Of a stretch of DNA of 11,426 nucleotides, positions 485 to 10,156 are shown one piece after another. The number at the start of each line of letters is the position of its first letter. Positions within the stretch are counted from its first letter, which is position 1. The stretch is from the IMG/VR virus record IMGVR_UViG_3300029126_000035. One strand, 5' to 3'. The notes below the pieces were generated by a model. The model did not search any database. It was not told the origin of the DNA and saw only the letters and a program-made list of their open reading frames with translations. The DNA comes from a virus. Lineage: Duplodnaviria > Heunggongvirae > Uroviricota > Caudoviricetes. Position numbers and translations under genes: made by a program.

Positions 485-1100
485 CCGCCCAGAAGAAGAT
501 ATTTTCACTGGCTGGTATGTCGCCAAAATCCGGCAATATGACAGCAAAGTCTGGCATTAATACAGCAGATACAAGCAAAGTTTATCATTTTCTGGTGGTA
601 GGAGCGGATACCTTAACTATGTCAGAAATTACGGTCGATGGTGTTAGCGTTGAGAAGGTCAGCGGCTGCGCCAGAGAATTTCTGGTCGTAGATCACCTGT
701 TCTGCTCGTGTAGTGACTCCACAAAAACATTCGTCCACGCGCGTGACGTTAACGAAATGAGCGCGATGTACTGTGCTTCTGGTTCTTCCAATAGTGAGTT
801 TTCGGAGTCCATAAAAAAGAGCTTGCCGTTATGCGGCAACACGGTTTATGGTTATAAGGCACCTCATAAAACGGGTGCCGGGATTAGGACCCCGCAGGCA
901 ATCGAGGCGATACATGACGCGCCAGCGTCTTTTTTTGTATCGGCGCACACGCACACCTTATCAATGGTGGGCTGTATGGGGCTGACTTCGGTCAGGCTGG
1001 TTTCCTTGATTGCCAGTAGTCCTAACCCTGTACAGTCCACCGCCAGCGAGCTTAGGACCTCCGGCGGTGGCTATAAACCATCAATCAAGGAGGCTGCCAC
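478..1100 (+). other. stop-free frame with strong RBS, coding status unresolved; structured leader region upstream of the small-gene operon
   Basis: ATG 478 preceded by GGAGG 465-469 (7 nt spacer); frame 1 has no stop from 478 to 1506, but beyond 1101 that frame is rich in rare codons (CTA, TTA, ATA, AGG) while the overlapping frame of 1101-1295 has good codon usage; region 850-1070 contains several stems and complementary motifs. Confidence 0.25.
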
Positions 1101-2778: not shown

Positions 2779-5535
2779 ATGCGAAACATTGATCTTATCC
2801 GTCAGGTTATCAGTGCGTCTGAAAACAACTGGCCTCATGTGCTGGGCTGCCTGAACATAAATGTCCCTGACTCTCCGCGCCGTCATGCTCCCTGCCCTGC
2901 ATGTGGGGGCAAAGATCGATTCCGGTTCGATGACAACGGGCGCGGTAGCTTCATCTGTAATCAGTGCGGCGCTGGTGATGGGCTGGATTTAATTAAACGC
3001 GTAAATAACTGCGACACAACAGAGGCGGCGCTTCTTGCCGCTGATGTTCTGGGTATTGATTACCGGACAACGGAAACACCAGAAGCCACCAGCCAGAAAC
3101 GGGAACAACTGGAAACCGAGCGCCAGCGACGCGAACAGGAGCGCCTGAAAAGGGCAGAGAAGGACGAACAACAAAGACGGGATACGTTTTCCCGTCAGTT
3201 TGATGACATGCGCAGAAAGGCTGTAAACGGCAAATCTGATTATCTGGTTGCGAAAGGGGTAGGTGATTTTACATTCCCCGTGTTGCCCGATGGATCTCTG
3301 TTGCTGGCGCTGGTGGATAAATCCGGCGCAGTCACAGCAGCACAGACTATTACCTCACATGGTGAAAAAAGACTCCTGACAGGTTCAGCAAAGCGGGGGG
3401 CATATCACGCCATAAACGCACCAGAAACAACACAGAGCATCTTAATCGCAGAAGGTCTGGCAACGGCATTATCTGCCCATTTAATTCGTCCAGAGGCGCT
3501 GACAGTGGCGGCGATTGATGCCGGGAACCTGTTATATGTCGCCCAGGTACTGCGGGATAAATTTCCTTCAGCACAAATCATCATTGCTGCGGATAACGAC
3601 CACAGCGAAGGAAGACAAAACACGGGGAGAATAGCAGCAGAAAAAGCAGCTTTATCTGTTTCTGGATGGGTGGCATTACCCCCGACAGATCACAAAGCAG
3701 ACTGGAATGATTACCACCAAAAACACGGCATTAAATGCGCCACAGAAGCGTTCAATAAGTCAATGTACCAACCACAGGGTAATGGCGTGAAACAGGAGCC
3801 ACAGACCATTGAGGGAAGCGATTTTAAGGTTATGGATACCGACCCACTGAAACCAAGAATAGAAAGCCGCGAGGATGGTATTTATTGGGTATCTCCGAGA
3901 GCTGACAGCCAGAGTGGAGAAATCATCAATAACGAAAGCTGGTTATGTTCTCCGTTAAGCGTTATCGGTACTGGCAGAGACGATAAAGACCAGTATCTCA
4001 TTCTTCGCTGGCTGTCGTTTGGTTCTGAAACGCCGACAACCGCTGCCATTCCACTGGCTGATATTGGTGAACGTGAAGGATGGCGCACACTTAAAGCTGG
4101 TGGGGTAAATGTCACGACCAAAAGCAGCCTCAGAGCAATACTGGCAGACTGGCTACAACGCAGTGGCTCTCGTGAATTGTGGCGTGTTGCTCATGCCACT
4201 GGCTGGCAATGCGGAGCGTACATCATGCCTGATGGGGAAATCATCGGAACACCTGAAAATCCTGTGCTGTTCAGCGGGAGAAGCTCAGCCGCAGCCGGAT
4301 ATACCGTCTCAGGGAGCGCGAAAAGCTGGCGTGATAACGTGGCGCGTCTGGCCTTTGGTAACTATTCAATGATGACCGGGATCGGCGCAGCACTGGCAGC
4401 GCCATTGATTGGGCTGGTGGGCGCTGACGGGTTCGGCATTCATTTCTATGAGCAGTCGAGCGCAGGTAAGACCACCACGGCAAACGTGGCGAGCAGCTTA
4501 TACGGCAACCCTGATTTACTGCGGCTGACGTGGTACGGAACCGCGCTGGGGCTGGCAAATGAGGCCGCCGCCCACAATGACGGACTAATGCCGCTTGATG
4601 AAGTTGGTCAGGGCGCTGATCCTGTCAGCGTTTCACAGTCTGCCTATGCGTTATTTAACGGTGTAGGGAAACTGCAAGGCGCTAAAGATGGTGGAAACCG
4701 GGATCTAAAACGCTGGCGTACAGTGGCAATCAGCACCGGAGAAATGGATTTAGAAACATTTATCGCTACTTCCGGGCGAAAAACCAAAGCCGGGCAACTG
4801 GTGCGACTGCTGAATATTCCGTTGAGTAAAGCAGTACGCTTTCACGATTACCAGAACGGAAAACAGCACGCAGACGCACTGAAAGACGCTTACCAGCATC
4901 ACCACGGCGCGTCCGGGCGTGAGTGGATTAAATGGCTGGCACACCACCAGCAACAGGCTATTAAAACCGTTCGTGATTGCGAAAGCAGATGGAGAAGCCT
5001 GATCCCATCCGATTATGGTGAGCAGGTTCACCGTGTAGCCGCGCGATTTGCCATTCTGGAGGCAGCATTGCTGTTAGGCGAAGTTGTAACAGGCTGGGAT
5101 GCTCAGACATGCCGTGATGCGATACAGCACAGCTATAACGCATGGTTGCGCGAGTTCGGCACAGGTAACAAAGAACATCAGCAGATTATTGAACAAACGG
5201 AGGCATTTCTTAATGCCTATGGGCTTAGCCGTTTTGCACCATTTCCATACAGCCCGGCAGATTTGCCCATCAAAGATTTAGCCGGATACCGTCAGCGTGG
5301 AGAACATGACGAAAGCCCAATGATTTTCTACACATTCCCGGCCACATTTGAAAAGGAGATCGCATGTGGTTTCAACGCAAAACAGTTTGCTGAAGTGTTG
5401 AAAAAAGCCGGGATGCTAACCCCACCAAACAGCGGTCGTGGATACCAAAGAAAATCACCACGTATTCAGGGACGACAAACAAACGTTTATGTACTCAATT
5501 ACCAGCCAGGAGATTATAACTCATCTGAAGAATGA
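2779..5535 (+). CDS. P4 alpha-type DNA primase-helicase (zinc-ribbon + Toprim primase, P-loop helicase, C-terminal domain)
   Basis: CPAC...CNQC zinc-ribbon pattern (nt 2893-2967); Toprim-like IAEG (E225) and AADNDH (D272/D274, nt 3592-3600); Walker A SSAGKTT (K564 at nt 4468-4470); Walker B-like LMPLDE; 918 aa; iterons immediately downstream. Confidence 0.93.
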   Translation: MRNIDLIRQVISASENNWPHVLGCLNINVPDSPRRHAPCPACGGKDRFRFDDNGRGSFICNQCGAGDGLDLIKRVNNCDTTEAALLAADVLGIDYRTTETPEATSQKREQLETERQRREQERLKRAEKDEQQRRDTFSRQFDDMRRKAVNGKSDYLVAKGVGDFTFPVLPDGSLLLALVDKSGAVTAAQTITSHGEKRLLTGSAKRGAYHAINAPETTQSILIAEGLATALSAHLIRPEALTVAAIDAGNLLYVAQVLRDKFPSAQIIIAADNDHSEGRQNTGRIAAEKAALSVSGWVALPPTDHKADWNDYHQKHGIKCATEAFNKSMYQPQGNGVKQEPQTIEGSDFKVMDTDPLKPRIESREDGIYWVSPRADSQSGEIINNESWLCSPLSVIGTGRDDKDQYLILRWLSFGSETPTTAAIPLADIGEREGWRTLKAGGVNVTTKSSLRAILADWLQRSGSRELWRVAHATGWQCGAYIMPDGEIIGTPENPVLFSGRSSAAAGYTVSGSAKSWRDNVARLAFGNYSMMTGIGAALAAPLIGLVGADGFGIHFYEQSSAGKTTTANVASSLYGNPDLLRLTWYGTALGLANEAAAHNDGLMPLDEVGQGADPVSVSQSAYALFNGVGKLQGAKDGGNRDLKRWRTVAISTGEMDLETFIATSGRKTKAGQLVRLLNIPLSKAVRFHDYQNGKQHADALKDAYQHHHGASGREWIKWLAHHQQQAIKTVRDCESRWRSLIPSDYGEQVHRVAARFAILEAALLLGEVVTGWDAQTCRDAIQHSYNAWLREFGTGNKEHQQIIEQTEAFLNAYGLSRFAPFPYSPADLPIKDLAGYRQRGEHDESPMIFYTFPATFEKEIACGFNAKQFAEVLKKAGMLTPPNSGRGYQRKSPRIQGRQTNVYVLNYQPGDYNSSEE

Positions 5536-5560
5536 GCTTCTTCATGTGCGTAGAAAAGGT

Positions 5561-5672
5561 GTTGGTTCAGTTGGTTCAGTTGGTTCAATTTGCAAAGAGT
5601 ATTGTTTTGTAAGGATTTTATTCTTTTTATTGAACCAACACTGAACCAACAACACGGTATTTTGAACCAACA
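5561..5672. repeat. iteron array, probable replication origin: 3 direct GTTGGTTCA copies, AT-rich spacer, 3 inverted TGAACCAAC copies
   Basis: Perfect 9-mers at 5561-5569, 5570-5578, 5579-5587 and inverted copies at 5631-5639, 5642-5650, 5664-5672; 43-bp AT-rich spacer at 5588-5630; starts 25 bp after the primase stop. Confidence 0.75.
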
Positions 5673-5767
5673 CAATGTGACTGAATTGATGAGCACAACA
5701 TCTGGCTGGCATTAGAGAGTGTTTTACGAAATCTGAACACCACATCACTGGTTTCAGTGGGAGATTG

Positions 5768-6226
5768 ATGATGAAGATAATCGCAAAGGCTTTTCATCAT
5801 GTATTTGGCAAAGTATCCGATTTGCCATCTGTAATACCGATGAACAACAGAAGGGAGATGCTGCTTGATGTGGTTGTGTTCCCATACATAGACCTTTCTG
5901 AACCAATGAAAGCAACTCTTTTCAGAAAGTATCTTGGCGACTTTAAACGCCGTTTTACAGGCGTTAACGGGATGGTTGATATCTGCTCCATCAGAGATAT
6001 TGTTGAACTTGCAGGGATTAATTTGTGGGGAGAAGCGGCAGCAGCATACAAATGGCTTGAACGCCTGCACTGTGTTTCATTCAGTGACATGAGTGCTGAT
6101 ATCGCTTTAATGGTTCCTCACAAAATCAATATGGTCTTTGCTGGTGGCAATTACACTTATCCATGGAACCAGGAACAAAGAGAGAACAGGAAAGCTCACG
6201 CCATGAAGAGTAATGCGACTCCATAA
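5768..6226 (+). CDS. hypothetical protein (152 aa), AT-rich gene between origin and cargo operon
   Basis: ATG at 5768/5771 preceded by GGGAG 5759-5763; followed by a rho-independent terminator; the antisense 147-aa ORF is Cys/His/Trp-rich and looks spurious. Confidence 0.6.
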   Translation: MMKIIAKAFHHVFGKVSDLPSVIPMNNRREMLLDVVVFPYIDLSEPMKATLFRKYLGDFKRRFTGVNGMVDICSIRDIVELAGINLWGEAAAAYKWLERLHCVSFSDMSADIALMVPHKINMVFAGGNYTYPWNQEQRENRKAHAMKSNATP

Positions 6227-6406: not shown

Positions 6407-6580
6407 ATGGCTATTTCAGTAAAGCCAGTATTGATAAGTGAGAAGCAAATGGAAGCGATAAAGAAAATTCAGGAGGAGCAGCGTAAAAAATCAGAGGTAG
6501 GAGTTGCGCCAACGATCCACGAAATTGCTCGGGGATTAATGGATAAGGCGCTGGCTTACACTTTAACTGGACGTGGGTAA
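6407..6580 (+). CDS. small protein (57 aa), possible ribbon-helix-helix DNA-binding protein
   Basis: Not in the ORF track (under 60 aa) but a clean ATG-to-TAA frame with RBS; N-terminal strand-like VKPVLIS followed by two helical segments fits an RHH layout; first gene after the SOS-box promoter. Confidence 0.5.
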   Translation: MAISVKPVLISEKQMEAIKKIQEEQRKKSEVGVAPTIHEIARGLMDKALAYTLTGRG

Positions 6581-6584
6581 ATTT

Positions 6585-8051
6585 ATGGCTACGTGGCAAC
6601 AGGGTATTAATTCTGGTGGTTTTCTGGCTGGCATCGGTACGCAAAATGAGAATGCGCCAAAGGCAAGCGACATTAACGCAACGCTTGGTCTGATCCGCGA
6701 AAACAATGAACTGGCTCGCTCAGGTGCAAATAACGTTGCTCTGACAGGTCTTCGTGGTCTGGCTGGAGTTGCTGATATTTATAAGCAGCAGCAACAGCAG
6801 GAGCGTAAAGCGGCATTCCAGAAAGGTTATGCAGATGCTTATGCGTCCGGTGACAGGGAGCAGATGCGTAATCTTATTACAGCATTCCCAGAAGAGTTTG
6901 AGGAAGTCCGTAAAGGGATGAGTTATGTCGATGATGCTCAAAGGGATGATTATGGCAATCTGGCGCTCAAAGCACAGGTAGCCTCATCGCTTGGTCCGGG
7001 CGCATTTGGCAGGTTCATGATAGATAATGAGCAGGAGATGCGTCGTTTAGGTATCCCTCCAGAAACTATTGCTGAAATGCAGGTTAATGACCCGCAGGGC
7101 TTCCAGCATTTCGCAGGTAATCTGGCGCTGTTTTCTCTCGGTCATGAGAAGTATTTCGATATCAAAGATCAAATGGAAGGTCGGGATATTGAGCGTGGCA
7201 AGTTGGCAGAGACAATCCGCAGCAATCAGGCCAGCGAAGCACTTCAGGCGAGAGGGCAGGATATTAGCCGAGCAAATGCGTTAACGTCAGCATATGCACC
7301 AACAGCAGCAATGCAGAATTACAATCAGTACGCGCAAATGTTAAAGGTGGATCCAGAGGGGGCGGCGGCATTTGCGGCAGCGGCTGGAATTAATACAAAC
7401 GCCAAAAAATTAATGAGTGTTAGAGAAAACGATGATGGCACTGTCACAAAATACTACACAGACGGAAGTGAAGAGCAGGGAAAACTAAACCAGCCAATAT
7501 CTGGAGATGGGTTTCGTCCAATAGCTTTGCCAACAGCCCAAAAGATCATGGAAAAGTCGCCAGAAGGGGCTAAAAAAGCTGCTGGATTTGCATACAGGGT
7601 TAGGGATGCTCTTGATTCAATGGATACACTGAAAGACCAGCTTAGCCCACAGCGAGTGGCGGTCATTAATAATGCTTTGGGTAATGGGACGCTGGCTAAC
7701 TTAACGCTCAGCCCAACAGAGCAGCAATACGTTGTTAATGCTAATGACGCAATAATGGCAATACTCCGTCAGGAAACAGGGGCAGCTATCGTACCTGCTG
7801 AAATGTCAAAATATTATCAAATGTATTTCCCTCAGCCTGGCGACTCCACAAAAACCATTGATACCAAGCGCCGGAAGATGGAAAACCAGTTCAATTCGCT
7901 GAAAGCTGCTTCTGGTCGAGCTTATGATGCTTTGCGGGTTATTTCAGCAGTTGACAGAGGAACTTCTTCTTCGTCGCAGACATTGCCGCAATCTGAGCAG
8001 GTATCACAGCCAGCAGCCAGCAGTAACTTTTCTTCACTATGGGGTGATTAA
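6585..8051 (+). CDS. hypothetical large helical protein (488 aa), Ala/Gln/Glu-rich, unknown function
   Basis: ATG 6585 lies 4 nt after the stop of the small gene (alternative GTG at 6573); polyQ run KQQQQQ; no P-loop or catalytic motif I recognise; stop overlaps the next start (TAATG). Confidence 0.8.
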   Translation: MATWQQGINSGGFLAGIGTQNENAPKASDINATLGLIRENNELARSGANNVALTGLRGLAGVADIYKQQQQQERKAAFQKGYADAYASGDREQMRNLITAFPEEFEEVRKGMSYVDDAQRDDYGNLALKAQVASSLGPGAFGRFMIDNEQEMRRLGIPPETIAEMQVNDPQGFQHFAGNLALFSLGHEKYFDIKDQMEGRDIERGKLAETIRSNQASEALQARGQDISRANALTSAYAPTAAMQNYNQYAQMLKVDPEGAAAFAAAAGINTNAKKLMSVRENDDGTVTKYYTDGSEEQGKLNQPISGDGFRPIALPTAQKIMEKSPEGAKKAAGFAYRVRDALDSMDTLKDQLSPQRVAVINNALGNGTLANLTLSPTEQQYVVNANDAIMAILRQETGAAIVPAEMSKYYQMYFPQPGDSTKTIDTKRRKMENQFNSLKAASGRAYDALRVISAVDRGTSSSSQTLPQSEQVSQPAASSNFSSLWGD

Positions 8052-10156
8052 TGGCTAAAGCATGGAAAGATGTTATCGCCTCTCCACAGTATCAGGCGTT
8101 AGCACCAGAACAAAAAGCGCAGGCTCAGGAGCAATACTTCAATGAAGTCGTTGCCCCGCAAGCCGGAGAAAGTGTAGAGCAGGCTAAGCAGGCTTTTTAT
8201 GCTGCCTATCCACTACCATCAACGAATGAAATAGACCGATACCAATCAGCAACTCAAAATATTCAACATACATCATCTGATAATTCTCTTGCGTCAGGGT
8301 ATGCAAAGTTAGCTACTCAGCAAAGAGAGGGGCTTGAGCGTTCAGCAGAACAGGGAGCCAGTCTTGGGGCTGCGATGCGCGATGCTATAACAGGCGAAAG
8401 CCGAATGACTCCAGAGATGGAGAGACTGCAAAATGTCGACCTTGCCCCAGAGTTAACCTCACTCAGCATGGATGCTCTAAAAGCTCGATGGTCTCAACTT
8501 TTCGGCTCTGACGCATCTCAGGAAAAGATTCTTCAGAGCATGGGAGCGAAATTAAGGCAGGATGAGAAGGGTAACACTATCGTTTCCCTGCCATCCGGTG
8601 ATTATGCTCTGAACAAGCCGGGTTTATCGCCGCAAGACGTGGCATCGTTTCTGGCTAATGCGCTGGCGTTTACACCAGCGGGCAGGGCCGGAACGGTGCT
8701 GGGGGCCATAGGGAAATCAGCAGCTACAGATTTAGCACTACAGGGAGCCACCAGCCTTGCTGGTGGAGAAGATATTGATCCGTTACAAACGGTAATTTCT
8801 GCTGGCATTGGCGGCATTGGTAAGGGGCTGGAGAATACAGCGAGTGCGGTTTCGAGGGCTGTTCGTGGTGATATGGCACCGGAAGCGAAAGCTGCTGTTG
8901 ATTTTGCATCGGAAAGAAACCTGCCGTTAATGACCAGTGACGTACTGAAAGATAAAAACACTGTGCAGAGTCTGGCCCAGAAAACAGGCGAAAAAATCCC
9001 TTTTTTTGGAACGGGTACGAACAGGTTGAATCAACAACAGGCACGGGAAAATCTGGTCAGAACATATAACGATGGTCTGGGAGGCATTTCAGATAAACAG
9101 CTTTATGAATCTGCGACTAAAGGGCAGCAAAAATTCATTGAGGCCGCAGGAAAGCGATATAACCGCATAATTGACGCTATGGGGGATACCCCTGTCGATC
9201 TCTCAAACACGGTAAAAGCTATCGACAATCAGATTGCCGTGTTAAGCCGCCCGGGCAAATCTCAGGATAGAGCCGCGGTAAAAGTCTTGCAGCAATTTAA
9301 AGACGATATCACCAGCGGACCAAATGACCTGCGTCTGGCGAGAGAAAACAGAACTGACCTTCGAAAGCGGTTCATGAATTCAAACGAGACAGTTGATAAA
9401 GACACGCTCCAGAAAGCCAGCGATATTGTCTACAAGGCATATACGCTGGATATGAGAAGGGCAGTAGCCCAGAAACTGGGTTCAGAAGAAGCAGCCAATA
9501 TGGCAAGGGTCGATCGCTCATGGTCTAAATTCAATGACATGATGGGAAGAACGCGCGTTCAGAAGGCAATAGCCAGCGGCAAGGCTACGCCTGAGGATGT
9601 AACAAAACTCGTTTTTAGCCAAAGCTCATCAGAACGTTCTCAGCTTTACAGGCTTCTGGATGACAACGGCAGGCAGAACGCACGGGCAGCCATAATACAG
9701 AATGCTGTAGATAAGGCGACTGATTCGGCGGGGAATATCAGCGTTGAGAAGTTTATTAACACGCTACACCGGAACAGAAAGCAATCCGCAACGTTCTTTA
9801 AGGGCGTGCACGGAAAGGAACTGGACGGCATTATTAAATACCTCAACGATACCAGACAGGCGGCAAAGGTTGACGGTCAGAAATTAAACAGCCAGAAACT
9901 TTATGGCCTGCTGGTTGGTGGAGGCGCTATAAATGCGGCAGTTCTGGCGGGGATGCTGAAAACGGCTGCGTTTGTTGTTCCTGCTGCAGGTGCCGTAGGC
10001 GGAGCAGCGAAGGCATACGAAAGCCCTGTTATACGAAATGCCTTGTTACGTCTGGCAAATACGCCAAAAGGTAGCACAGCATATGACAGAGCGATCAGTA
10101 CGGTCACACAATCACTGACCACAGCAGCACAAGCATCGCAAAAGGAAGCTCAATAA
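8051..10156 (+). CDS. hypothetical large protein (701 aa) with C-terminal Gly/Ala-rich hydrophobic hairpin, unknown function
   Basis: ATG 8051 overlaps upstream stop; Ala/Gln/Lys-rich helical composition; hydrophobic segment LYGLLVGGGAINAAVLAGMLKTAAFVVPAAGAVGGAA at residues ~616-656 (nt 9896-10018); no canonical Walker A. Confidence 0.85.
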   Translation: MAKAWKDVIASPQYQALAPEQKAQAQEQYFNEVVAPQAGESVEQAKQAFYAAYPLPSTNEIDRYQSATQNIQHTSSDNSLASGYAKLATQQREGLERSAEQGASLGAAMRDAITGESRMTPEMERLQNVDLAPELTSLSMDALKARWSQLFGSDASQEKILQSMGAKLRQDEKGNTIVSLPSGDYALNKPGLSPQDVASFLANALAFTPAGRAGTVLGAIGKSAATDLALQGATSLAGGEDIDPLQTVISAGIGGIGKGLENTASAVSRAVRGDMAPEAKAAVDFASERNLPLMTSDVLKDKNTVQSLAQKTGEKIPFFGTGTNRLNQQQARENLVRTYNDGLGGISDKQLYESATKGQQKFIEAAGKRYNRIIDAMGDTPVDLSNTVKAIDNQIAVLSRPGKSQDRAAVKVLQQFKDDITSGPNDLRLARENRTDLRKRFMNSNETVDKDTLQKASDIVYKAYTLDMRRAVAQKLGSEEAANMARVDRSWSKFNDMMGRTRVQKAIASGKATPEDVTKLVFSQSSSERSQLYRLLDDNGRQNARAAIIQNAVDKATDSAGNISVEKFINTLHRNRKQSATFFKGVHGKELDGIIKYLNDTRQAAKVDGQKLNSQKLYGLLVGGGAINAAVLAGMLKTAAFVVPAAGAVGGAAKAYESPVIRNALLRLANTPKGSTAYDRAISTVTQSLTTAAQASQKEAQ

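What the first reader, a model, noticed from the sequence alone, without database searches (positions are those of the whole stretch)
5561..5672. Iteron origin: 3 direct plus 3 inverted 9-mers around an AT-rich spacer
GTTGGTTCA occurs three times in tandem (5561-5587) and three times as the reverse complement TGAACCAAC (5631-5672), flanking a 43-bp AT-rich spacer, starting 25 bp after the primase stop. Converging iterons around a DNA-unwinding element is the classic architecture of satellite ori/crr sites bound by the replication protein C-terminus. The 9-mer differs from the P4 type I octamer (TGTTCACC as I recall), suggesting a distinct replicon specificity.
Basis: partly seen in the sequence, partly recalled or inferred. 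Interest (0 to 1): 0.45.

Follow-up and report, generated by a model that had tools for sequence, protein, structure and literature searches.

The report
Replication origin of a phage satellite
The repeats are real and are almost certainly the replication origin of an E. coli phage satellite (an EcCIMP1-type PICI), read by the winged-helix tail of the neighbouring primase-helicase; this is a known kind of origin, but it turns out to be one half of a two-part origin that cargo genes have split apart.

Summary
Observation confirmed. GTTGGTTCA occurs three times in tandem (5561-5587) and three times inverted (5631-5639, 5642-5650, 5663-5671). The two sets flank a 43-bp, 21% GC spacer, and the array starts 25 bp after the stop of a 918-aa Zn-ribbon/Toprim/DUF927 primase-helicase.

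The window is an EcCIMP1-family PICI; its primase is 912/918 identical to EcCIMP1's. The layout matches the published PICI/SaPI origin: opposed iteron sets around an AT-rich centre, immediately 3' of rep.

P4 is an analogue, not the family. A mirror-image second iteron module lies ~6.4 kb downstream in near-identical E. coli islands (8.5 kb in EcCIMP1), beyond the window end, and is adjacent in 30 of 60 loci. No experiment has been done on this element. Verdict: new member of a known kind.

The parts
2779..5535 (+). Pri-Rep initiator: 918-aa primase-helicase with an N-terminal Zn-ribbon plus Toprim primase, a central DUF927 helicase and a C-terminal domain
   Evidence: Pfam Zn_Ribbon_Prim, Toprim_3 and DUF927. 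PDB 8tch, a SaPI Rep, E 1.8e-11 over residues 402-813. Residues 7-361 are 33% identical to P4 alpha. 912/918 identical to the EcCIMP1 primase.
5116..5532 (+). C-terminal domain (residues 780-918), predicted to contain a winged-helix domain; putative recognition helix at residues 867-876
5446..5466 (+). Codons for QRKSPRI (residues 890-896), the wing segment that changes with iteron class; candidate specificity determinant
   Evidence: All 37 class A proteins have Q-R-K-S-P-R-I. The GTTGTCTCA class has Q-G-R-V-R-E, and other classes differ again. It is the only strongly diverged coding stretch (40% identity, with an indel) in the L008/L010 DNA alignment.
5561..5587 (+). Left arm: three contiguous direct iterons GTTGGTTCA
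   Evidence: Mean column conservation 0.95 across 40 class A sequences. The middle copy is often degenerate in relatives.
5588..5630 (.). AT-rich spacer (43 bp, 21% GC), the presumed melting site. Its core, about 5602-5622 (TTGTTTTGTAAGGATTTTATT), is partly conserved even across iteron classes.
   Evidence: among the 0.25% least stable windows. (conserved core TTTATAAGGwTTTTATT). A weak IHF-like match lies at 5610-5622 on the - strand.
5631..5672 (-). Right arm: three inverted iterons TGAACCAAC(A) at 5631, 5642 and 5663, spaced 11 and 21 bp (one and two helical turns)
   Evidence: Column conservation is 0.98-0.99, against 0.54 for the DNA between them. The same offsets from the stop codon recur in relatives down to 61% primase identity.
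5702..5710 (+). CTGGCTGGC motif that follows module L regardless of iteron class. It marks the point after which cargo genes are inserted in split elements. Function unknown.
   Evidence: the 8-mer CTGGCTGG is present in exact form downstream in 24 of 59 loci, across classes A, B, C, D and F. Its reverse complement CCAGCCAG lies at 5502-5509 inside the primase 3' end.

Best explanation
Window 5561-5672 is the proximal half (module L) of the replication origin of an EcCIMP1-family phage-inducible chromosomal island.

Proposed mechanism:
- After the helper phage induces the island and it excises, the island's Pri-Rep protein (2779-5535) recognises the 9-10-bp iterons through the winged-helix domain at its C-terminus. 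The beta-hairpin wing (QRKSPRI, residues 890-896) contributes to reading the central bases of the repeat.
- Six iterons, three on each side and pointing towards each other, position the hexameric DUF927 helicase around the 43-bp AT-rich spacer.
- The spacer melts without a separate loader (self-loading).
- The N-terminal Zn-ribbon/Toprim domain of the same polypeptide lays down the primers.

Shown here: the anatomy, its conservation, the protein/iteron covariation, the predicted fold, and homology to SaPI Rep.

Inferred by analogy with SaPI Reps and EcCICFT073: binding, melting, self-loading and origin firing.

A mirror-image module R with the same iterons lies ~6.4 kb downstream in near-identical E. 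coli islands (8.5 kb in EcCIMP1) and probably co-operates with module L.
For: (a) Layout. The array lies immediately 3' of the initiator gene, with opposed iteron sets and an AT-rich centre. This is how PICI origins are defined in PMC6092414 and SaPI origins in PMC9371898.

(b) Element identity. The gene order is int, HTH, AntA/B, DUF4222, Ash, Pri-Rep, cargo, PerC, between yicC and dinD. The primase is 99% identical to that of EcCIMP1. EcCIMP1 has been shown to excise and to be transferred by phage Kapi1 (PMC11773190).

(c) Selection. In 40 class A sequences the iterons are 0.95-0.99 conserved, the spacer 0.60, the inter-iteron DNA 0.54, and the last 30 nt of the primase coding sequence 0.50. 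The identical 9-mer sits at the same offsets in many genera, down to 61% primase identity.

(d) Specificity covariation. At least eight iteron classes occupy the same scaffold. Classes B and C match class A as well as class A members match each other everywhere except residues ~871-918: within-class 0.77-0.80, against 0.56-0.66 (B) and 0.32-0.38 (C).

(e) Not a block swap. In L008 versus L010 the scaffold is colinear at ~70% identity. All 11 iteron positions carry the same 2-nt change. Only the wing-coding stretch is strongly diverged. The intervening 86 bp stay at 67-83% identity.

(g) Episomal forms. Circular 12.2-kb and 19.2-kb records carry int plus this replicon and are deposited as plasmids.
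Against: No binding or replication experiment exists for this element or for EcCIMP1; the EcCIMP1 paper does not mention an origin or iterons.

The experimentally validated Gram-negative PICI origin (EcCICFT073) uses an unrelated Pri-Rep and a different iteron, so the functional precedent is by architecture and not by homology.

The covariation rests on a limited number of independent lineages; the five class B members are nearly identical in this region. Physical linkage of the gene's 3' end to the origin could inflate it.

The winged-helix fold is a prediction. A first model with a shallow alignment failed (pLDDT 39).

Contiguous 9-bp repeats are tight for one winged-helix domain each, so the stoichiometry is uncertain. 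The middle tandem copy is often degenerate in relatives.

Sequence alone cannot say whether initiation occurs at module L, at module R, or at both.
Confidence: 0.85

Rival explanations
1. The repeats do bind Rep, but module L is an auxiliary cis site (a P4 crr-like enhancer, or a copy-number 'handcuffing' or autoregulatory site) and not the place where DNA is opened. Initiation would occur at the distal module R, or would need both modules looped together.
For: A second cluster with the same iterons exists in 44 of 60 related loci and is kept even when 0.6-9 kb away. In P4 the iteron site immediately 3' of the alpha gene is crr, not ori. Module R also has an AT-rich spacer and ends in a conserved TTTTGCTTATATATA box.
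Against: Module L has the full canonical layout of opposed iterons plus the least stable duplex nearby. It sits where SaPI and PICI origins are defined. Eleven loci with at least 9 kb of downstream flank have only module L.
Confidence: 0.1
2. The inverted repeats act as an RNA or DNA hairpin (a transcript stabiliser, processing site, attenuator or cruciform) at the 3' end of the primase mRNA, and not as protein-binding iterons.
For: The transcript 5545-5690 can fold into a long hairpin: -49.6 kcal/mol, z = -5.4, with 0 of 200 shuffles as stable. Changes of iteron class preserve arm complementarity (helices 1-3 are 81-87% paired).
Against: The arm pairing follows automatically from both arms being copies of one motif. 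The only independent stem, in the spacer, is paired in just 58% of cells. The degenerate position of the middle tandem copy is unpaired in 12 of 35 sequences without compensation. The arms are asymmetric: contiguous 9-bp repeats against 11/21-bp spacing. Tandem copy number varies (2, 3 or 7) without matching changes in the other arm. Module R contains direct-only arrays at 21-bp spacing. There is no T-run terminator and no Rfam family here. A hairpin would not explain the covariation with the protein wing.
Confidence: 0.03
3. The repeats are binding sites for a different protein, such as an island regulator (AlpA-type HTH, Ash, PerC), the helper phage's small terminase (a pac site), or a host factor.
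For: The island encodes several DNA-binding regulators. EcCIMP1's packaging signal is unknown. The class-independent CTGGCTGGC motif and the conserved spacer core show that something other than iteron-specific recognition also acts here.
Against: Iteron class tracks a specific segment of Pri-Rep, while the rest of Pri-Rep and the origin scaffold stay at background identity. I did not check whether other island proteins also track iteron class. No DnaA boxes or GATC sites are present, and there is only one weak IHF-like match. The 9-mer cluster is absent from the phage collection, apart from one Klebsiella record that itself carries the homologous primase.
Confidence: 0.02

Closest known systems
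PICI / SaPI replication origins with self-loading Rep (Pri-Rep) initiator-helicases: SaPI1, SaPIbov1 and SaPI5 (PMC9371898), and the Gram-negative PICI origins of Fillol-Salom et al. 2018 (PMC6092414)
   Different: The iterons are 9-10 bp instead of 5-6 bp. One arm is a gapless tandem array. The primase domain is the P4-alpha-type Zn-ribbon/Toprim. The origin is bipartite, with a mirror-image second module that can lie kilobases away. The host is a Gram-negative bacterium and the helper is a P22-like podovirus.
EcCIMP1, a PICI of E. coli MP1 mobilised by phage Kapi1 (PMC11773190)
   Same: Same gene order. The primase is 912/918 identical. The same 9-mer forms the same module L after the primase and the same module R upstream of perC.
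   Different: The integrase and attachment site differ (tRNA-Thr next to proA, against yicC/dinD here). The cargo between the modules differs in part. In EcCIMP1 the three inverted iterons of module L are spaced 21/21 bp, against 11/21 bp here. The paper does not describe the origin.
EcCICFT073 pri-rep-ori, the only Gram-negative PICI origin tested functionally (PMC6092414)
   Same: Same layout in the 289-bp gap after pri-rep: tandem direct iterons, an AT-rich stretch, inverted iterons, further sets, and a final tandem inverted pair.
   Different: Its Pri-Rep (584 aa) has no significant similarity to this protein. Its iteron is CTGTCTACC. The origin is compact and not split.
Satellite phage P4 ori/crr with the alpha protein
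   Same: The N-terminal primase domain is homologous (33% identity, E 2e-41). Short iterons occur in both orientations. Two separate iteron sites lie kilobases apart, one of them immediately 3' of the primase-helicase gene (P4 crr). A C-terminal origin-binding domain is the proposed reader.
   Different: P4's iteron is TGTTCACC, not GTTGGTTCA. The helicase and C-terminal domain are not detectably related, and the P4 alpha origin-binding domain is not among the top fold matches. The island annotation and Pfam scans of the window ORFs show no sid, delta or psu genes; cos was not searched for. P4 crr is a pair of 120-bp direct repeats, not a mirror image of ori.
SCCmec Cch / MCM-like self-loading helicases
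   Different: To my knowledge (not checked here), no iteron origin of this architecture has been defined for Cch, and it has no fused primase. The element type also differs.

Membership tests
PICI/SaPI-type Rep-iteron origin | [quoted passage not shown] | tested here: met
   The first iteron starts 25 bp after the TGA at 5533-5535. The same offset recurs in 37 relatives.
PICI/SaPI-type Rep-iteron origin | Two sets of iterons, at least two per side, in opposite orientation and flanking an AT-rich region | tested here: met
   Three plus three exact copies around a 43-bp spacer of 21% GC.
PICI/SaPI-type Rep-iteron origin | The cognate initiator is a Rep helicase homologous to SaPI Reps | tested here: met
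   phmmer against the PDB: 8tch 'Pathogenicity island protein', E 1.8e-11, over residues 402-813; Pfam DUF927 E 3.5e-47.
PICI/SaPI-type Rep-iteron origin | Rep carries a C-terminal winged-helix domain that reads the iterons | tested here: met
PICI/SaPI-type Rep-iteron origin | Rep binds the origin specifically, and rep plus ori drives autonomous replication | not testable with these tools
   Indirect evidence only: the covariation, and circular 12.2-kb and 19.2-kb episome records that carry the replicon.
PICI/SaPI-type Rep-iteron origin | The host element is a PICI: int, alpA-type regulator, pri-rep, no complete virion or lysis gene set, helper-dependent mobilisation | tested here: met
   Annotation of the ~16-kb island between yicC and dinD. 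Synteny with EcCIMP1 and a 99% identical primase. Mobilisation has been shown for EcCIMP1 only (PMC11773190).
P4 ori/crr system | Type I iteron TGTTCACC | tested here: not met
   The P4 repeats were read from NC_001609. GTTGGTTCA is absent from P4, and the window's iteron differs.
P4 ori/crr system | Alpha-type protein: primase plus P4-type helicase plus alpha C-terminal origin-binding domain | tested here: not met
   Only residues 7-361 align (33% identity). The helicase and C-terminus do not. hhalign of the C-terminal profile against the alpha C-terminus gives probability 0.1.
P4 ori/crr system | Two separate cis-acting iteron sites, both needed for replication | tested here: inconclusive
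   Two iteron modules ~6.4 kb apart are present in near-identical islands (8.5 kb in EcCIMP1), but whether both are needed is unknown. Eleven relatives show only one.
P4 ori/crr system | P4 gene set (sid, delta, psu, cos) | tested here: not met
   No sid, delta or psu genes appear in the island annotation or in Pfam scans of the window ORFs. cos was not searched for.
Iteron plasmid origins (RepA/Pi/TrfA type) | Tandem 17-22-bp direct iterons with adjacent DnaA boxes, and a Rep_3-type initiator that recruits host DnaB | tested here: not met
   The repeats are 9-mers in opposed sets. There is no DnaA box with up to 1 mismatch in 5500-5800. The initiator is a primase-helicase, not Rep_3.

The most novel reading that the evidence does not exclude
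The origin of this PICI lineage is bipartite. It would consist of two mirror-image six-iteron modules, each with its own AT-rich centre. Each module might load one Rep hexamer, giving 6 + 6 iterons for two oppositely oriented helicases.

The junction between the modules, just after a conserved CTGGCTGGC motif, would serve as a cargo slot into which 0.6-9 kb of genes have repeatedly been inserted without loss of either module. The cargo includes helper-matched DNA-delivery proteins: P22-type ejection proteins here, and tape-measure proteins elsewhere.

Replication would then depend on long-range co-operation between the two half-origins, a functional parallel to P4 ori and crr that arose in an unrelated helicase lineage.

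The natural series of iteron variants paired with wing variants would give a readable recognition code for this winged-helix domain.
Probability: 0.3. Interest if true: 0.6.

Novelty: new member of a known kind. Interest (0 to 1): 0.35.

Why it matters
This places the so far undescribed origin of the EcCIMP1 family of satellites. The module L DNA is present in 365 of 5,426 complete E. coli genomes, and the replicon occurs widely across Enterobacterales.

It assigns the cognate initiator and proposes a specificity determinant only seven residues long, which can be tested by a simple swap. Because related Reps with different iterons share one scaffold, the family is a natural system for studying how self-loading initiator-helicases choose their origins, and how co-resident satellites might avoid cross-talk or incompatibility.

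If the two-module arrangement is functional, it would show that a satellite origin can be split by kilobases of cargo and still be maintained. That would affect how satellite boundaries, cargo hotspots and minimal replicons are defined. It would also provide compact, orthogonal Rep/ori pairs for engineering.

Tried and rejected
- AlphaFold2 on residues 780-918 with a shallow alignment (28 sequences at 75% identity or more) gave pLDDT 38.8. I discarded that model and did not use it for fold search.
- A sequence profile of the C-terminal domain against all PDB sequences found no hit at E up to 10. hhalign against the C-terminal 119 residues of P4 alpha gave probability 0.1. Homology to the P4 origin-binding domain is therefore not supported.
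- The phage collection has no close relative of the window, apart from the P22-type ejection genes and one Klebsiella record.
- A full-text search for the 9-mer returned only unrelated papers.
- Consensus promoter and terminator scans found nothing in module L or module R. A terminator reading is rejected.
- There are no DnaA boxes or GATC sites, and only one weak IHF-like match.
- The RNA-hairpin reading was tested and not supported beyond what the repeats imply by construction. Rfam finds nothing at the origin.
- Block recombination as the cause of the covariation was considered and rejected for the A/B pair, because the DNA between the wing codons and the first iteron stays at background identity.
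- The small ORFs that overlap the repeats (5438-5644, 5514-5696, 5542-5748, 5590-5715) are treated as spurious. The conservation pattern follows the repeat units, not codons.
- A simple one-residue code (S893T for the T-to-C iteron variant) was considered. It was rejected because L046 and L058 keep RKS while having GTCGGTTCA iterons.

Full report
**1. The observation.** The sequence is as described. GTTGGTTCA occurs at 5561-5569, 5570-5578 and 5579-5587 on the + strand. Its reverse complement occurs at 5631-5639, 5642-5650 and 5663-5671. These are the only exact copies in the 11,426-bp window. With up to one mismatch there are 11 matches against 2.7 expected, and none of 200 shuffles reaches 11. 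The inverted copies are spaced 11 and 21 bp start to start. Four of the six copies extend to the 10-mer TGTTGGTTCA. The 43-bp spacer 5588-5630 has 20.9% GC against 48.1% for the window, and ranks among the 0.25% least stable duplex windows. The array begins 25 bp after the TGA of ORF 2779-5535.

**2. What surrounds it.**
- ORF 2779-5535 encodes a 918-aa protein with a T7/P4-type zinc ribbon, a Toprim domain and DUF927.
- Its central part is homologous to a staphylococcal pathogenicity-island Rep (8tch, E 1.8e-11) and more weakly to the SCCmec Cch helicase (5dgk).
- Only residues 7-361 resemble P4 alpha (33% identity).
- The window matches E. coli chromosomes at 98% or more.
- In strain ISHS7 it is part of a ~16-kb island between yicC and dinD. 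The genes are integrase, HTH regulator, AntA/B, DUF4222, Ash, four small ORFs, the primase, P22 gp20/gp16-like ejection proteins and PerC.
- The gene order and the primase (912/918 identical) are those of EcCIMP1, a PICI of E. coli MP1 shown to excise and to be transferred by the P22-like phage Kapi1 (PMC11773190). That paper does not describe an origin.
- Two circular records deposited as plasmids (12.2 kb in E. coli, 19.2 kb in Klebsiella) carry an integrase plus this replicon, and look like excised islands.

**3. Comparison with the literature.**
- Fillol-Salom et al. [quoted passage not shown] They showed that EcCICFT073 rep-ori maintains a plasmid, while a rep deletion does not and an ori deletion is impaired (PMC6092414).
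- Qiao et al. 2022 describe SaPI Reps as self-loading initiator-helicases. A C-terminal winged-helix domain reads 5-6-nt iterons. Six to twelve iterons lie just downstream of rep, half on each side of an AT-rich centre and pointing in opposite directions (PMC9371898).
- The window's feature fits this definition point by point.
- I fetched EcCICFT073. Its Pri-Rep is unrelated by BLASTP and its iteron is CTGTCTACC, but the layout is the same. So the architecture belongs to the PICI class as a whole, and this is a different Rep/iteron lineage within it.

**4. Comparative evidence.** A scan of one genome per species returned 77 loci with relatives of the primase, from 99% identity down to about 30%; the 60 loci surveyed for iterons (including two E. 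coli islands fetched separately) span 52-99%.
- In 37 of 58 loci analysed, across many genera and down to 61% protein identity, the identical 9-mer sits at nearly the same offsets from the stop codon.
- In an alignment of 40 such sequences, the iteron columns are 0.95-0.99 conserved. The spacer is 0.60, the DNA between the inverted iterons is 0.54, and the following DNA is 0.34.
- Other relatives carry a different repeated word in the same scaffold: GTTGTCTCA, GTCGGTTCA, ACGGGTTA, GTGGGTTA, GTCGGGTA, TGGGATAAG and GGTCGGTT.

**5. Who reads the iterons.**
- Windowed identity along the protein shows that classes B and C are as similar to class A as class A members are to each other everywhere except the last ~50 residues. 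Within class A the value is 0.77-0.80. A against B is 0.56-0.66 and A against C is 0.32-0.38.
- All 37 class A proteins have QRKSPRI at 890-896. Class B has QGRVRE, and other classes differ again.
- The gene's 3' end adjoins the origin, so I checked for a simple block swap. L008 (class A) and L010 (class B) are colinear at ~70% identity across 660 bp.
- All 11 iteron positions in that pair carry the same change, TGAACCAAC to TGAGACAAC. The only sharply diverged coding stretch (40% identity, with an indel) is the one that encodes the 890-896 segment. The 86 bp between it and the first iteron stay at 67-83% identity. This is coordinated change, not co-transfer of one block.
- A second AlphaFold2 run with a 46-sequence alignment gave pLDDT 80.3 for residues 780-918.
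- The covarying segment falls in the hairpin ('wing') after the putative recognition helix 867-876.
- No similarity to the P4 alpha C-terminal domain was found.

**6. A second module.**
- The same 9-mer forms a second cluster about 6.4 kb downstream in near-identical E. coli islands, some 500 bp past the window end and just upstream of perC. It consists of three direct copies at 21-bp spacing, an AT-rich spacer, and three contiguous inverted copies. It is a diverged mirror image of module L.
- EcCIMP1 has it 8.5 kb away, and the 12.2-kb circular form has it 1.9 kb away.
- Among 60 loci, a second cluster is adjacent (under 500 bp) in 30 and distant (0.57-9 kb) in 14. It is absent within at least 9 kb in 11, and undetermined in 5. 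Both modules typically have six iteron hits.
- Module R ends in a conserved TTTTGCTTATATATA box.
- Where the modules are apart, the insert starts after a class-independent CTGGCTGGC motif (5702-5710 here). It holds variable cargo: ejection proteins here, and tape-measure proteins, SLT-domain proteins, Fic and a P4 beta-like protein elsewhere.
- This is reminiscent of P4, where the annotated crr lies immediately 3' of alpha and ori lies 4.7 kb away. Whether both modules are needed here cannot be decided from sequence.

**7. Rivals.**
- A long hairpin is thermodynamically possible (-49.6 kcal/mol, z = -5.4). Only the iteron-iteron helices are maintained, and that is true by construction. The independent spacer stem is paired in 58% of cells. 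The degenerate position of the middle tandem copy is left uncompensated in 12 of 35 sequences. The arms are asymmetric and tandem copy number varies.
- No terminator, promoter, Rfam family, DnaA box or GATC site is present.
- Binding by another protein is made unlikely by the covariation with one specific segment of Pri-Rep.

**8. Verdict.** The feature is the Rep-recognised iteron origin (proximal module) of an EcCIMP1-type PICI, and most likely works like SaPI origins. It is not a member of the P4 ori/crr system, although it shares P4's primase domain and, intriguingly, a two-site arrangement. It is a new member of a known kind. The bipartite, cargo-split organisation and the natural wing/iteron specificity series are the parts that go beyond what has been published, and they are directly testable.

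Noticed in passing
L001 30970-31098 (about 500 bp beyond the window end); L002 8436-8550; L083 10736-10856: A second, mirror-image iteron module with the same 9-mer lies just upstream of perC, 6.4 kb (L001), 1.9 kb (L002) or 8.5 kb (EcCIMP1) from the module in the window. It is followed by a conserved TTTTGCTTATCTATATAAT box.
   Followed up: partly
window 859-935 and 960-1047 (+): Rfam gathering-level hits to the isrK Hfq-binding RNA (63 bits) and the C4 antisense RNA (80 bits, E 7.5e-15). Both lie inside the long ORF 478-1506 annotated as 'ash family protein'. Related islands annotate an Icd-like protein in this stretch. This suggests a P1 immI-like or P4 CI-RNA-like immunity module, and that the ORF may be over-called.
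   Followed up: no
window 6573-8051 and 8051-10156 (+): The satellite carries P22 gp20- and gp16-like DNA ejection proteins (Pfam Inj_translocase; PHROG 917 and 770) between the two origin modules. Relatives carry tape-measure proteins, SLT-domain proteins, Fic or a P4 beta-like protein in the same slot. Satellites may bring their own DNA-delivery proteins matched to the helper type.
   Followed up: partly
window 5702-5710 (+) and 5502-5509: CTGGCTGGC follows module L in elements of several iteron classes; the 8-mer CTGGCTGG is exact in 24 of 59 loci. Its reverse complement CCAGCCAG lies in the primase 3' coding end (40 of 59 loci have it within 120 nt of the stop). Function unknown. It marks the cargo insertion point.
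   Followed up: partly
window 5602-5622: The spacer core TTGTTTTGTAAGGATTTTATT (consensus TTTATAAGGwTTTTATT) is partly conserved even between iteron classes. It overlaps a weak IHF-like match (AATAAAATCCTTA on the - strand, one mismatch at the conserved C).
   Followed up: partly
L002 (NZ_CP148430.1, 12,152 bp circular) and L003 (CP031370.2, 19,229 bp circular): Records deposited as non-mobilizable plasmids contain an integrase plus this replicon and PerC. They are probably excised circular PICIs and not plasmids. In L003 the primase gene appears frameshifted.
   Followed up: partly
L004 (Klebsiella phage P12620-1, PQ569648.1, record 98.6-101 kb): A 106.5-kb 'phage' record carries a homologous primase, followed by the same 9-mer array (11 copies) near its end. 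This may be a satellite co-assembled with a phage, or a phage that acquired the replicon.
   Followed up: no
L036 (Yersinia pekkanenii), L064, L059, L007: L036: the primase match is ~1.1 kb longer and a fragment is annotated as having an HNH endonuclease domain; three origin-like clusters lie within 6 kb. L064: seven tandem iterons instead of three. L059: its Rep has TGGGATAAG-type iterons, but a GTTGGTTCA-type cluster lies 6.1 kb downstream. L007: an Enterobacterales-like PICI in a 'Chryseobacterium' assembly, possibly contamination.
   Followed up: no
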